NCBI GenBank assembly: GCA_963798085.1
Contig: CAWCRS010000002.1
Coordinates: 1 to 64,000, forward strand
Direction: 5' to 3'
Length of the DNA stretch: 64,000 nucleotides
DNA from: an uncultured Gemmatimonadales bacterium
GTDB taxonomy: Bacteria > Gemmatimonadota > Gemmatimonadetes > Longimicrobiales > RSA9
This document shows, piece after piece, positions 29,301 to 38,300 of this stretch. How positions within the stretch are numbered: position 1 is the first letter of the stretch; each line of letters begins with the position of its first letter. The position numbers were made by a program.

Positions 29301-32300
29301 GACCGAGAGCGGAAAGCGATTCCCCTGGACGGCGTGATAAATGCGCACCAGCCGATCCGCGCGCGCGTAGGGCAAAGGCCGCAGCAGCACCGCGCGCACC
29401 ACGGCCAGCATCACGGTGGTTCCACCCATGCCCAGTCCGACGGTCAACACCACGGTCAGCGCGAGCGCGGGAGTGCGCACGAAGCTGCGCAGCGCCGGCA
29501 CGACATCCGCCCGCAGACCGGAGAACATGTCCGCGCGCTCGCCGCCGCTCCCGGCCACCGGCACGGCGTCACGCATCGGCCGGCGCACACGCTCGCGCAG
29601 CAGGCGCAGCGGGTAACGCGCGAGCTGGCGCCGATACCACCGGTCCGCGACCGCTGCCCCATCCCGCATGCGACGACGCTCCCACAGCTCGCTCAGCTCG
29701 CTCAGTACCTGGCGCCGCTCGGCTTCCGAAAGCAGCGTGCGCAACGCCAGCCGCACGGCCACGCCCGGGCGCGGCGGCTGCGCCTGCGGCGTCATGTCGC
29801 CTCGTCCAGCTGCGAAGCGATGCCCTCCCACAGGCGCAGCAGCACCTGCCGCGATTCACGCAGCACTCGCATGCCCGCCGCCGTCAGCTTGAAATAACGC
29901 CGCGTCCGCCCGCTCTCCCCCTCCCCTTCCACCATGCGCGACCGCAGCAGCCCCTTCGCCTCCAGACGACGCAGCACTATGAACACCGCCGCCTGCGTCA
30001 CCTCCCGCCCCGCACTCTCCTCCAGCTCTACCACGATCGGCACACTGTACGACTCCCCGCCGTGCCGCAGAATCGACAGCAGGAGCCGGTGCTCGAATTC
30101 GCCCAGTGAACTCATCTTTGCCTCTGCAACTGCGTTATGGCGCCAGTGACTAAAAACTTTAGTCATGATGGATGCGCGGCCCGGCAGTGTCAACAGAGGC
30201 GTTGCTCGGGCTGGGCCTCGGGCTGGTTACTCGGGACGGATCGTATGGAAAACGGAAACTGCGTTGCTCGGGCTGGTGCTCGGGCTGGTTACTCGGGAGG
30301 ACGGACTGTCTTCCGCAATACGCCAAGCCGTTCCCCGGCGCCCACCCCTGAACGGGTGCCCGCGCCCGCGCCCGACCCCTGAGCCTCACCCTTCCCCCGA
30401 ACCCTTCCCCTGCAACAACGCCACTTCTAACACACGGTTTGAATCGGTTCCCGGGCAACCAGCCCAGGCAACCAGCCCCAGCAACGCCGTTTGGTCTTCC
30501 TACCTCCCGCCGACCCCGCCGACCGCTCCCTGCGCGAAGTTGAACTGTCCGAATATGGCGAACTGCAGCTGGCTGGAGCCGGTGGTGGTGCCGACGTGGG
30601 AGTCGCGGCCGGTGTAGTTCAGTCGCATGCCCACGGTGATGTCGGAGAGCACGGTGTCGAGCGTGAAGTTGATGTTGCGGTTGGCGGTATCGAGGTAGTT
30701 GACGCACGGATCGTTGCCCAGGCCGAGTGGTGTGATGCGGCAGCGGCGCTGATTGTCCTGCGTGAACATCAGGCGTGCGGAGATGGGGCTCTTGAACTTG
30801 GCCTTCATGAACGCGGGCGGCTGGACGATGCTGGCGAACTGGATCGTGTGTGTGGTGCCATCCTGCTGGCCGTTGCCGGTGGGGTCGAGTGTGGTGCCCC
30901 GCGTGATCGTCGCGTTCCACGACACGGTGACGCCGCCGGCGATTGTGACGCTGGTCTCGAACGGGTAGCGGTTTTCCAGCAGTCCCCTCGCCTGTGTGCC
31001 GCTGCCGCCGTACGCGCTGCGCTGGTCGCCGCGTTCGTAGCCGCCGCCAATGGATGCGGAGAGCAGCACGCGGGACAGTGCGGCGGGCAGCGGGATCTGG
31101 CTCCAGGACACGCGCAGGCTGGGCCAGGTGATGTTCTGCTGCGTGCGTGCGCCGCCGCGGATGTCGAAGCCGTTGCTGCTGGAGTTCGTGTAGCGCAGCG
31201 CCAGCTGTCCGCTCAGGGGCAGGCGGGTGATCCCGCCGGCCGTCAGGTCCATGCGCTGCAGTGTGGTGACCGCGGTGTCAGCACCCAGCGCGCGGAAGCC
31301 GGCCAGCCCGCCCAGTCCCAGCTGGTAGCCGGATGCCGCATTGCGGGTTTCGCGATCGAAGCTGGACGTGAGCCCGCTGTTCCAGGTCATCGTCAGGCTC
31401 TGCACGTTGCTGATCAGCCTGAGCAGGCTGCCGTGCACGGAGTCACGCTCCAGCGAGCGCACCAGCAGGCCCGGCTGGATGTCGAGGCGCCGGTCGATGC
31501 GGCGATCACTGCCGAAGCGGCGCTGCAGCACGGCGAGTGAATCGCCATTGTCGACATCCACCTCGAAGAAGCTGGGATCGCGGTTTGTCTGGAAGCGGTT
31601 GCTGAAGCTCCAGCTGGGGCGCAGCCAGTCGGCGACCACCGGCCTGATGGACAGCGACGATGTCAGTGAGCGACTCGTCTCCCAGCCGACGTCCGTGCCC
31701 GCGACGCTGCTGCGCGCGCGACGCAGTGCGTCCTGTGTGATCGGCAGCGCCGAGACGACATCCGGGTCCAGCAGGTCGCGGCTGCTGCGCGCCGACAGGC
31801 CAGCGACCACGGCATCGAAGGGCGCGAACGCGATGTCGGCGGTGTTGTCCAGCCCGCGCTGTGGCGAGAGAATCGGTGCCAGCGTGGCATCACCTGGGTC
31901 GGCGAGAATGCTGGAGTAGCGGAACGCCTTCGCATTGGCGTTCCGATAGAGTGTGCCGAAGCCCAGGCGTTGCGGTGTCCAGCGCATGCGCCCGCTCAGG
32001 AGCCGCTGGAAGAAGGCGCTCCGTTCGATGCGGTCGGGTGTGATGGCGCGCAGCGCGTTTTCCACGAAGCCCGGCAGGATGTCGATGTCGTGGCGCGCAA
32101 TGTCGCGATGGTAGTCGATGCCGCCGCGGAAGGCGCCGCTCTCGTTGCGCGACGTGATCGTGTTCGTGTGCGCGGCGTCGTAACCCAGGCTGATGCTCGT
32201 GCCATCCACCAGCAGGCCCAGCAGCGCGTTGGAGCTGGGCGTGCGTTTGCTGATGCGCATGCCGAAGCTGGTGGTGCCCGCGCCACTGTCGCGCAGTCCC

Positions 32301-35300: not shown

Positions 35301-38300
35301 ATCGTACCCACCGTGTCGCCCGATTCCGTCACGTAGGAAATGGCAAGCGCTTCATCGGTGCGCAGCGGTGAGCGCAGCATGATCCAGAGACCGCTCTGGT
35401 GCACGATGTAATCCTGGTCCGGATCCAGCCGGCGGAACTGGCCGCTGTGCTTCAGCTGACCATCCTCGGAAACGGCGTTCGCCAGGAACAGGTTCACCTG
35501 CTGCTGTCCGCTGGCGGGCGGAATGCGCTCGTCGCGGTAGATCTGGATGATGCCGCCCTGTGCGGGGCGCAGGCGGGTGGGTGCATCACTGGCGCGCAGC
35601 TGCAGCGCATCGATGTGCGGAGAGCTGGCGAGGCTGTCGGGATTGACGAGGAAGAAGAACTGGCCCTTCACGTAATCCGCGTCGTCGATTACGATCTGGT
35701 CATCCTGCACCAGGCCCTGCTGCGCGCCGCCGCCCAGGCGGAATTCCTTCGTGCTGAGATCGCCGCGCTGCTGCGCGCCCACGAACTGGAAGTCGATGGG
35801 TCCCAGCTGGCCGCTGGCCATGAGACCGAAGTTGCCGGCGGGAATGCCCTGCGTGAGGTAGCGCGAGCGGGGCAGTGCGAACTGCACGTCGCCCACTTCC
35901 ACGCGCTGCAGCACCTCATCCGGCATGCCCTGATAGAACACGTTGATCAGGTTGGAATTGAACGTCTCTTCGCGCGTCTGGTCGTAGTCCACATTGAGAT
36001 GCACGCGATCCGAGATGGTGCCGCCGACCTGCACACTGAACTGCACGTTGGGTTTGATCTGCGGAAAGAGTCCGGGATTGCAGTTGAGGTGCAGGCTCGG
36101 ATCACAGGGATGGAAGCGAGTCCAGGAGCCGCCCATCTCGCCCACGCCGCTGATCTTCATGCCAATGTCGGCGTAGCGGCCGAGCGCGCCCGGCAGCAGG
36201 TCCTTCGTCGTGTCGCGGCGCACGGGCGGTGGCGGCAGGAACTCCGCTGGCTGCGGCGCCACAGCGGCTTCGGCGATCAGTGTATCCGGTGTTCGTCCCG
36301 CGGCCAGACCGAGCCAGCCGACGGGATCGAAGCGCACGTTCGTCGCCCAGTCGCGGACATAGTCGTGGAAGCTCATGCGACTGAACAGCACGGTGTCCAG
36401 CTGGGGCAGGCGGAAATCGATGGGAACGACCGCAGGCAACCGCGCGAGGCCCAGCTGGATCGGCCGGGCCTTCGTGGTATCGCGTGCAAATGCGGGCGGA
36501 CGCGTCGCGCCCCCCGCTCCCGTGACCTGCGCGGCCGCCGTAGTCGTACGTGCGAGCAGCAGCAGAAAGAACAGCCAGAAATGCTTCATGCGGCGGAACC
36601 GCGCCGTACCGGAGCCGCACGGAGACCTCGGATTCAGTCTCCTTCCCACGCCGGCCGCGCGGACTGGTGACAGCGTGAAGGGCCGAATATAGTCTGCGTT
36701 CGCAATGTCCTCAACGCGCTCCGAGGCGTCCGCCTCTGCCCCGGCCACGGCCAGCGGACCCCGGCGACCGCCTCCGGCGTAGCACACGCGTCCGATCGGT
36801 CCTCCGGGGTTCAACGTCGAAGCCATGCGAATACTGACGCGCTATCTGCTGCGGACGCATTTTCCGCCGTTCCTGTTCGCGCTGACCGTGCTCACCGGTC
36901 TGCTCTTCGTGAACACGATCGCGCGTCGTTTCGCCGATCTCGCCGGCAAGGGTCTGGGCGCTCACATCATTCTCGAGGTGTTCGGCCTCTCGCTGCCGCA
37001 CATTGTCGCGCTCACGCTGCCCATGGCGGTGCTCGTCGCGGTGCTCTACGCCTTCAGCCAGCTCACCGCGGACAACGAAATCACCGCGCTCAAGGCCAGC
37101 GGCACGAACCTGCTGCGCGTGCTCCTCCCGCTGCTCGGCGCCGCCATCCTGCTGGCACTCATCATGGTGTGGTTCAACGATCGCATTCTGCCCGAGACGA
37201 ATCACCGGCTGAAGAATCTGATGTCGGACATCGGACGCAAGAGCCCGACGCTCACACTGAAGGAGCAGGTGATCAACCCCATCCGCCCGCAGCAGGACCT
37301 GCGCGCACAATATTTCCTGCAGGCGGCGCACATCCACCAGGCCACGAATCGCCTGACGGACGTGACCATCTACGATATGAGTCTGCCGCAGAAGGTGCGC
37401 ACCATCTACGCGGACAGCGGGCGCATGGCCTGGAACCCCAGCCAGACCAACCTCATGCTGACGCTGTACGACGGCTGGGTCTACGAAGTCAGCACAGTCG
37501 AGCCGAACAAGTTCTCGCGCGTGCGTTTCGGCGAGCATCTGCAGGTCATGAAGGGCGTGGGCAGCGAGCTGACGCGTGTCAACGAGTCGTACCGCAGCGA
37601 TCGCGAGATGTCGCTCGAGATGATGGCCGCGCGCATGGACAGCTCGCGCTCCGAGATCGACTCATTGACGGCCGAAGCGCTCAAGAAGAACACCTTCGCC
37701 GTGCGCCAGGCGCTGGCCGGTCCGCGGGACCTCAGCCCGCTGGATCCCACACCCGTACTGCCGCCCAGTGCGGGCGGCATTCGCTACGCCGAGCTGGGCC
37801 CCGCCACGCAGCATCCCGGCGTCTGGGATGCGGAGGACCATCTCGTCCGCCGTACATCGCTCGAATTGCAGGTGCTGCGCAACCAGATCCAGGCGAGACA
37901 GCTCGAGATCAACCGGCTGACCGTGGAATACCACAAGAAATTCGCCATCCCTGCCGCGTGCATTGTGTTCGTGCTCGTGGGCGCACCCATCGCCGTGCGC
38001 TTCCCGCGCGGCGGCGCCGGCATGGTCATCGCCATCTCGCTGTTCGTCTTCGCCATCTACTACATGTCGCTGATCGGCGGCGAATCGCTCGGCGACCGCG
38101 GCCTGGTATTGCCCTGGTCCGGCCCCTGGGCGCCCAACATCGTGTTTACCGCCCTCGCCGTCTGGGGCCTGGCCCGCATCGGCCGCGAGACCAGCTCCGC
38201 CCGCGGCGGCGGCTGGGACGACCTCTGGCTCTCCATCCGAACCTTCTTCACCAGACCCTTCCGGCACCGTGCCGCCGTCCCGGCTGCGGGAGACTAGAAC

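What a model noticed while it worked through the whole genome (the two positions that open the first line are those of the whole stretch)
30500..36787. SprA translocon, PorV and CTD cargo without a detectable GldLMN motor
The genome encodes a 2095-aa SprA/Sov, a PorV-like barrel (g03011) and three proteins with a T9SS C-terminal signal (g03010, S8 protease g02813, g04464), but no GldL, GldM or GldN is found. This points to a reduced or differently powered type IX system.
Evidence so far: SprA in 5 of 5 RSA9 genomes and GldL/M/N in 0 of 5; CTD hits over the cut-off. Positive control: GldM and GldN ring in a Bacteroidota genome but not in four other SprA-bearing FCB genomes. PorV-CTD complex prediction: score 0.89, best of 3 controls 0.00; the mark was reached by 51 of 78 solved and 2 of 108 mismatched pairs; contacts agree 85% or more, partner pLDDT 82. 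The cargo-porV gene pair is also adjacent in G181.
(Added by a program. Inside this text positions count along the whole contig: contig position 1 is position 1 of the stretch shown here. "Call 12" and the like, gene names such as g00115 and contig names such as C1 are that model's own, and its searches are not shown. The text may have been shortened before it was handed on; [...] marks where a part breaks off. The agent that wrote the report below was given it as the finding of a first reader that could run no searches.)

Follow-up and report, generated by a model that had tools for sequence, protein, structure and literature searches.

The report
Type IX translocon without its motor
This bacterium and most of its phylum carry the outer-membrane pore, carrier barrels and tagged cargo of the type IX protein secretion system, but no detectable copy of the proton-driven motor thought essential to it, which suggests that the pore is older than its motor.

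Summary
Confirmed and extended. Window 30500-36589(-) encodes a full-length SprA (about 2029 aa; the 36787 start is probably 66 codons early). The genome also holds four PorV-family barrels and five C-terminal-signal (CTD) proteins. SprA occurs in 97 of 121 phylum genomes. GldM was found in 0 of 401, GldN in 0 of 41 and GldL only at noise level, while a Cardinium control rings for all three. None of 50 SprA-bearing genomes from other deep FCB lineages reached the GldM or GldL cut-off. One family lost sprA together with its strong PorV genes, and its CTD-only protein changed motif. A DUF5683-like membrane protein occurs only with SprA (24 of 30 versus 0 of 11). It is predicted to bind the core PorV (0.71, best control 0.00; mark met by 116 of 157 solved, 2 of 215 mismatched pairs). 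Type IV pilus ATPases are not the substitute motor. Best reading: a working, low-flux type IX core that predates the gliding motor. Secretion is not shown, and an unrecognised energiser is not excluded. The scan's notes held no earlier report of this.

The parts
30500..36589 (-). sprA/sov, the large beta-barrel translocon, about 2029 aa with a Sec signal peptide
   Evidence: TIGR04189 459 bits; fold matches 8gl6/8gl8/6h3i/6h3j; start
36825..38297 (+). lptF-like permease, divergent from sprA (conserved neighbour, probably not part of the machine)
   Evidence: PF03739; an lptF/G neighbour in 18 of 19 order-level loci and 23 of 75 deep-FCB loci
38663..39736 (+). lptG-like permease (conserved neighbour)
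   Evidence: PF03739
25899..26852 (-). M28-family lipoprotein, normally the gene right after sprA; inferred glutaminyl cyclase (not tested)
   Evidence: PF04389; in 13 of 19 loci and 23 of 75 deep-FCB loci; kept in SprA-less G040
27102..30115 (-). padR plus ADOP permease pair, inserted between sprA and the M28 gene in this genome only
   Evidence: PF03551, TIGR03434; absent from the 18 relative loci
19034..25430 (-). comEA-pilB-pilT-pilC block, frameshift-split here; syntenic with sprA but not its motor
   Evidence: independent of sprA in G025 and G040

Best explanation
A working, minimal type IX secretion core that runs without the GldKLMN energy chain. Shown here: an intact SprA barrel, PorV-family carriers, and signal-peptide proteins ending in a type-A-like CTD, conserved and lost together, with no detectable GldK/L/M/N. 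Known from F. johnsoniae: cargo crosses the inner membrane by Sec, and its CTD binds PorV loops inside the SprA pore without energy. Inferred: the carrier-cargo pair leaves the lateral gate by slow spontaneous or exchange-driven release instead of being pulled. Flux is low (five CTD proteins), several cargoes are co-encoded with their own carrier, and with no detected PorU the cargo probably stays on that carrier at the surface. A DUF5683-like membrane protein bound to the outer wall of the core PorV is the best candidate helper for docking or release (inferred).
For: SprA in 30 of 41 relatives and 97 of 121 phylum genomes, including 15 of 15 outside the class. PorV_fam at E<=3e-15 in 30 of 30 SprA-positive genomes and 2 of 11 negative ones. 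17 of 24 TIGR04183 hits have a PorV gene within 400 bp downstream. GldM 0 of 41, 0 of 401, 0 of 50 over cut-off in deep FCB genomes; GldN 0 of 41; GldL none over cut-off in 41 and 64 genomes. The Cardinium control rang. Closed G033 has no GldK-fold match at all. An unfiltered own GldM profile gives best E 0.86 in this genome. Topology scans found no GldL/GldM-like pair among 2766 pairs here and 738 pairs in 62% of G033. In SprA-less family f3 sprA is cleanly deleted (103 bp gap), and 7 of 7 CTD-only proteins lost the PNPF Phe and gained a tail; 21 of 22 read SprA-positive copies keep the Phe. The DUF5683-like gene is in 24 of 30 SprA-positive and 0 of 11 negative genomes. Its complex with core PorV (G010 copies) scored 0.71, best of 3 controls 0.00; the mark was met by 116 of 157 solved and 2 of 215 mismatched pairs; contacts agree at least 95%, partner pLDDT at least 75; own alignments, so the counts hold only roughly. 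Energy-free loading: PMC10994853.
Against: In F. johnsoniae the PorV-cargo pair is trapped on SprA without the motor, with about 1850 A2 of CTD buried (PMC10994853), so passive release needs a weaker interface that I did not show. No secretion or expression evidence. TonB-ExbB-ExbD and Tol-Pal motors are present in this genome. All Gld controls are Bacteroidia. The CTD-only protein persists in 8 SprA-less genomes. The DUF5683-like gene is missing from 6 of 30 SprA-positive genomes, including closed G027, so it is not essential. G035 and G015 have a strong PorV but no SprA found. SprE, SkpA and PorG were not tested. Kin are not independent: the co-loss rests on about three events.
Confidence: 0.5

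Rival explanations
1. The translocon secretes, but is powered by a different known or unknown energiser, most plausibly TonB-ExbB-ExbD or Tol-Pal pulling on the carrier or on a bridging protein.
For: Energy is needed for release in the only studied system. tonB-exbB-exbD-exbD at C7:447841-449964 and a tol-pal locus at C5:384476-387941 exist. A TonB-dependent receptor gene heads the cargo-porV operon in this genome, G010, G025 and G031.
Against: No Ton or Tol gene cluster was recognised among the conserved neighbours of sprA or porV. These motors have their usual jobs. No TonB-box test was made.
Confidence: 0.27
2. A GldLM-type motor and hub are present but too diverged for Bacteroidia-trained profiles.
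For: All positive controls are Bacteroidia. Unchecked notes of this scan report small GldL/GldM-like pairs in Ignavibacteriota and Marinimicrobia. 38% of G033 was not scanned and my gene caller misses genes. Four weak GldL hits (E 0.01-0.04) were not followed up.
Against: SprA, PorV, CTD and, in an Ignavibacteria genome, DUF4835 (E 3e-59) are all found with Bacteroidota-type profiles, yet GldL and GldM are not, even there. GldK belongs to an easily detected fold and G033 has no member. The topology scan passes the Cardinium pair and finds TolQR and AtpEF, but nothing Gld-like. Four of 14 unrelated control genomes rang at the same weak GldL level.
Confidence: 0.13
3. SprA and the core PorV do another envelope job here (for example lipid or LPS handling, given the lptFG neighbours), or the system is a decaying relic.
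For: Divergent lptFG in 18 of 19 and 23 of 75 loci. Few cargoes; TIGR04183 finds none in family f2. The CTD-only protein survives SprA loss.
Against: lptFG stay in place after sprA loss. SprA is intact and strongly conserved across the phylum. Cargo-porV pairs recur. CTD motifs change where SprA is lost. f2 genomes do carry CTD proteins by my own profile.
Confidence: 0.07
4. The neighbouring type IV pilus ATPases (PilB/PilT/PilC) power SprA.
For: pilT-type ATPase genes follow sprA in 16 of 19 loci.
Against: Closed, 100% complete G025 has SprA, three PorV hits and cargo but no PilB-level hit and no secretin, and lacks the block after sprA; the one ATPase hit inspected was a conjugative type. 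SprA-less G040 keeps the whole pilus block.
Confidence: 0.02
5. The absence is an artefact of an incomplete, frameshifted assembly.
For: 90% complete; about 14% of orthologues are split or short.
Against: Same result in five closed SprA-positive genomes and 401 phylum genomes; six-frame searches read through stops.
Confidence: 0.01

Closest known systems
Type IX secretion system of Bacteroidota (F. johnsoniae SprA-PorV-PPI-SprE-SkpA translocon with GldLM motor and GldKN hub; P. gingivalis Sov, PorV, PorKLMN, PorG)
   Same: SprA barrel of the same fold end to end; PorV-family carriers; Sec signal plus type-A-like CTD on cargo.
   Different: No GldK/L/M/N or DUF4835 detected; SprA about 370 aa shorter (2029 vs 2403); only five CTD proteins; a DUF5683-like candidate partner on the carrier.
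Type B CTD / PorP-SprF cognate shuttle pairs (PMC12618676, passages)
   Same: Cargo gene directly followed by the gene of its own carrier barrel.
   Different: Here the pairs use type-A-like CTDs and PorV-family barrels, whereas in F. johnsoniae all type A CTDs share one PorV. No PF11751 hit in 5 genomes (no control rang).
T9SS proposed outside Bacteroidota (Fibrobacter, PMC6851124; list of phyla in PMC11285876)
   Same: CTD-like signals outside Bacteroidota; Gemmatimonadetes is named as possibly having a T9SS.
   Different: The passages read give no component inventory and do not report a missing motor.

Membership tests
Canonical T9SS (Bacteroidota) | SprA/Sov translocon | tested here: met
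   TIGR04189 459 bits vs 200; fold Z 20-21 to solved SprA
Canonical T9SS (Bacteroidota) | PorV-family carrier barrel | tested here: met
   NF033709 135 bits vs 90; the narrow PorV equivalog NF033710 scores 56 vs 250, so family member, not strict orthologue
Canonical T9SS (Bacteroidota) | Cargo with signal peptide and type A CTD | tested here: met
   3 TIGR04183 hits over cut-off (lower, 18.5-24.5 bits); 2 more by own profile; Atlas neighbours of the CTD-only protein carry PF18962 in 39-58% of members
Canonical T9SS (Bacteroidota) | GldL/GldM (PorL/PorM) proton-driven motor | tested here: not met
   with a ringing Cardinium control in 26, 27, 116; topology scans 62, 65, 107
Canonical T9SS (Bacteroidota) | GldK/GldN (PorK/PorN) hub | tested here: not met
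   GldN 0 of 41, control 1e-41; GldK profile gives only generic sulfatase-modifying-fold hits (<=67 bits vs 267 in control) and none in G033
Canonical T9SS (Bacteroidota) | PorD (equated with DUF4835 from memory) | tested here: not met
   0 of 4 (G000, G033, G025, G438); rang in Ignavibacteria G471
Canonical T9SS (Bacteroidota) | PorU sortase (peptidase C25) | tested here: inconclusive
   0 of 5 genomes, no control rang
Canonical T9SS (Bacteroidota) | PorP/SprF carriers and Plug | tested here: inconclusive
   0 of 5 each, no control rang
Canonical T9SS (Bacteroidota) | SprE/PorW, SkpA, PorG, PPI | not tested
   no searches left and no profiles at hand
Canonical T9SS (Bacteroidota) | CTD-dependent, PMF-dependent export across the outer membrane | not testable with these tools
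   needs a cultured strain

The most novel reading that the evidence does not exclude
The type IX translocon (SprA + PorV-family carriers + CTD signal) is an ancient FCB-superphylum export pore that works without a trans-envelope motor, helped by an unrecognised DUF5683-type membrane partner of PorV. The GldKLMN gliding motor was bolted on later in Bacteroidia, the reverse of the published view that the T9SS began as part of the gliding machinery.
Probability: 0.4. Interest if true: 0.88.

Novelty: new variant of a known kind. Interest (0 to 1): 0.74.

Why it matters
[quoted passage not shown] A translocon conserved across many FCB phyla without that motor challenges both the universality of the first claim and the order in the second. 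It makes the question 'what is the energy for?' testable in cultured Gemmatimonadota. It also offers a candidate new component (DUF5683-like) and implies that detection models that count motor genes will miss these systems.

Tried and rejected
Type IV pilus ATPases as motor: rejected. Cargo-PorV fusion protein (1459-aa frame, C7:17449-21828): probably a one-base assembly error, since the genes are separate in the 5 relatives whose junction was printed and the same-genus genome has an overlapping stop/start; public contigs did not cover the junction. No RNA holder listed; uninformative. GldK candidates: the sulfatase-modifying-fold hits are an EgtB-context gene, a fused protein and split or partial hits, none in a gld-like operon. 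Motif scans for GldM, GldL and GldK found only a loose GldL pattern, 18 matches, 12 shown, in what looked like unrelated proteins. A single-sequence unfiltered search timed out with no output. PorU, PorP/SprF and Plug searches had no ringing control. No solved structure resembles the DUF5683-like protein by sequence (best E 0.81); its Pfam match is below cut-off (E 0.03; Atlas cluster 25% DUF5683). FlgD_ig hits were mostly internal domains, not C-terminal signals. Literature searches that found no report of a motor-less T9SS; term look-ups in PMC7323717 and PMC5445135 gave no hits and PMC8542988 only a reference. Earlier-findings look-ups found nothing on this claim.
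Full report
VERDICT. SprA, PorV-family carriers and CTD cargo are conserved across the phylum (database names of homologues: Longimicrobiales, Gemmatimonadota), and no GldK, GldL, GldM or GldN is detectable. 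It fails the membership test for a canonical T9SS but most likely works like its translocon half. Secretion itself is not shown.

THE GENE. The frame at 30500-36787(-) scores 459 bits on TIGR04189 (cut-off 200). A codon model and homologue starts place the start at 36589: 2029 aa with a signal peptide followed by Gln. AlphaFold models of residues 22-1180 (pLDDT 71.5) and 1051-2029 (pLDDT 84.4) both match solved SprA best: Foldseek E 1e-27 to 5e-22 for the C half; Z 21.2, 744 aligned, rmsd 12.8 and Z 20.3, 817 aligned, rmsd 14.4. The high rmsd is expected for half barrels (inference). The first 160 mature residues are low confidence, so the N-terminal region could not be compared.

THE REST OF THE SYSTEM IN THIS GENOME (all on contig C7, outside the window). 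Four PorV-family genes: a core copy after era, followed by a DUF5683-like gene (1592561-1594458; porV is frameshift-split here); one in a TonB-dependent receptor-cargo-porV-GWxTD operon (249028-258770); one after an S8 protease cargo (17449-21828); and an orphan (640097-641020). Five CTD proteins: the 1238-aa cargo, two S8 proteases, a BNR/Vps10 propeller protein and a 145-aa protein that is only signal peptide plus CTD. Among relatives 17 of 24 TIGR04183 hits have a PorV gene within 400 bp downstream. That is the gene logic of type B cargo-shuttle pairs, whereas F. johnsoniae type A CTDs share one PorV (PMC12618676, passages).

THE MISSING MOTOR. As control I used the Cardinium plasmid NZ_HG422566. 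It rang for GldL (E 4e-24), GldM (1e-100), GldN (1e-41) and GldK (267 bits, under the 350 cut-off). Over 41 genomes, five of them closed and SprA-positive: GldM 0, GldN 0, GldL 4 weak hits at E 0.01-0.04, a level reached by 4 of 14 unrelated control genomes; these were not followed up. GldM was 0 of 401 phylum genomes (nothing rang inside that call), against SprA in 97 of 121. In 50 of 75 SprA loci from other FCB lineages (the tool took 50), GldM gave one fragment at E 0.002. GldL gave one at E 0.004 among 64 genomes. GldK was tested in 4 genomes: generic fold hits in three, none in closed G033. My own GldM profiles (60 and 120 Cytophagales-type sequences), run without filters, gave best E 0.86 and 3.2 here. 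A scan for a two-helix gene followed by a one-helix gene, a pattern the control pair shows, returned 14 of 2766 pairs here and 5 of 738 in the first 1.6 Mb (62%) of G033; none was Gld-like by inspection. Limits: all Gld controls are Bacteroidia; many deep-FCB genomes are incomplete; this assembly has 64 of 472 orthologues short.

SIGNS THAT THE PARTS ACT TOGETHER. All 30 SprA-positive genomes have a PorV hit at E<=3e-15; 2 of 11 negatives do (G015, 75% complete; G035). Closed G040 keeps the gene block around sprA with 103 bp in its place. The CTD-only protein has a strong hit in 31 of 41 genomes, 8 of them SprA-less. Of 23 SprA-positive copies 22 were read: 21 keep the PNPF Phe and all end at the last strand. 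All 7 copies in family f3 replace the Phe and add 10-30 residues; G035 replaces the Phe without a tail. That is about two independent events, and PMC10994853 says conserved CTD motifs set the fold rather than contact the translocon (section read), so this reads as relaxed constraint, not proof.

A CANDIDATE NEW PARTNER. The DUF5683-like gene follows core porV in 7 of 8 loci. It is in 24 of 30 SprA-positive and 0 of 11 negative genomes, but is missing from closed G027. A complex prediction with the intact G010 copies supports binding: 0.71, best of 3 controls 0.00; mark reached by 116 of 157 solved and 2 of 215 mismatched pairs; contacts agree at least 95%; partner pLDDT at least 75; own alignments, so the counts hold only roughly. 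Its C-terminal helix (residues 222-256) contacts alternating strand residues of PorV, which I read as the outer barrel wall. No solved structure resembles it by sequence, so memory of a like complex is less likely. The family label is weak. DUF5683 appears in 2 held papers; one lists a P. gingivalis member in vesicle proteomes with unknown location (one table row).

OTHER POWER SOURCES. Pilus ATPase genes follow sprA in 16 of 19 loci, but G025 has SprA without them or a secretin, and G040 has them without SprA: rejected. TonB-ExbBD, Tol-Pal and MotAB exist and are not excluded; they were not recognised among sprA or porV neighbours.

HISTORY. SprA homologues are named from WOR-3, Cloacimonadota, Latescibacterota, Zixibacteria, TA06, Marinimicrobia, Calditrichaceae, Eisenbacteria, Ignavibacteria and others. 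lptF/G neighbours occur in 23 and the M28 gene in 23 of 75 loci. In a 20-row IQ-TREE tree (picked from 48 rows) the single Bacteroidia SprA is sister to Ignavibacteria (100/99), then Calditrichota plus Marinimicrobia (100/99), with Longimicrobiales outside. A clade of Longimicrobiales plus Bacteroidia is rejected (p-AU 0.0007; group named after seeing the first tree). This fits vertical descent with the motor confined to a nested branch. The root is midpoint only, deep nodes are weak, several rows fail the composition check, and some depositor labels disagree with the tree. The order 'pore first, motor later' is therefore an inference.

MECHANISM. Known for F. johnsoniae: loading needs no energy and release does (PMC10994853, passages). 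Inferred here: the same loading, then slow unpowered or exchange-driven exit of carrier plus cargo, tolerable at low flux with dedicated carriers, cargo staying on its carrier, and the DUF5683-like helix pair assisting the core carrier (0.5). Rivals: another energiser 0.27, diverged Gld motor 0.13, other job or relic 0.07, pilus ATPases 0.02, artefact 0.01.

WHAT IS IN PRINT. PMC11285876 says T9SSs may be present in Gemmatimonadetes and other FCB phyla (passage). PMC5837995 notes BLAST hints in Chlorobi, Fibrobacteres and Ignavibacteriae (passages). PMC4793230 found T9SS only in Bacteroidetes with a multi-component model (passages). PMC11205867 gives FCB-wide presence without an inventory (passages). 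PMC6851124 argues from CTDs in Fibrobacter (passages). PMC12635249 infers origin within the gliding machinery (passages). Nine searches found no report of a motor-less system. From memory only, not seen: McBride and Zhu 2013 may have noted sprA without gld genes in some non-gliding relatives. Databases already label these proteins SprA. I read no supplements; component tables in survey papers may list SprA-only genomes.

Noticed in passing
window 19034-24633, 43649-46909 and elsewhere: pilB, pilT, pilC and metH are split by frameshifts; about 14% of orthologues genome-wide are short, pointing to assembly indels rather than pseudogenes.
   Followed up: partly
window 25899-26852 and signal peptides of SprA, PorV paralogues and cargo: Many envelope proteins have Gln right after the predicted signal-peptide cut, and an M28 lipoprotein follows sprA across FCB phyla; suggests the Bacteroidetes Q-rule (PMC5837995) extends to this phylum. 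Not counted.
   Followed up: no
L137:4935-5372 (G000 C7:1548935-1549372): Single-copy protein made only of signal peptide and CTD, after selB; kept in SprA-less genomes with a changed motif and a basic/aromatic tail, so it may have been repurposed or have a second role.
   Followed up: partly
L096:8042-9034, L099, L043, L044, L046; G000 C7 near 1592700: Core PorV has an invariant CxGxC loop, and family f1 copies add a vicinal Cys-Cys just after the signal peptide; recalls the Cys motifs that tie PorG/SprF to GldK, but no GldK is present.
   Followed up: no
L139:279-2567 and 11409-12770: Two GWxTD-domain genes flank the receptor-cargo-porV operon here and in G010.
   Followed up: no
L085:5409-7985, L088, L034, L036, L040: In several relatives the cargo-porV operon continues with a small outer-membrane barrel (PF13505) and a roughly 590-aa lipoprotein; possibly PorG/PorT-like accessories.
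   Followed up: no
L217, L223, L224, L225: In Marinimicrobia sprA is followed by the M28 gene, an unknown 270-300 aa gene, a 530-630 aa protein and a PorV-like gene: an apparently compact T9SS-core operon.
   Followed up: no
L219, L227, L239, L246, L247, L248: In Ignavibacteria-type loci sprA is directly followed by a response regulator of about 520 aa that looks like PorX (label from recall).
   Followed up: no
L187, L194, L202, L205, L212, L242, L247: Depositor taxon labels (Ignavibacteria, Cytophagia, Chromatiales, Chitinophagales) disagree with where their SprA falls in the tree.
   Followed up: no
window 12200-19000: Lower-GC stretch with a split DUF4011/AAA helicase-like gene, possibly a mobile or defence island.
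   Followed up: no
G000 contigs C1, C2, C3, C7, C8: Many large proteins carry an internal FlgD-Ig-like domain 140-230 residues before the C terminus that weakly resembles the CTD; they also occur in SprA-less G009.
   Followed up: no
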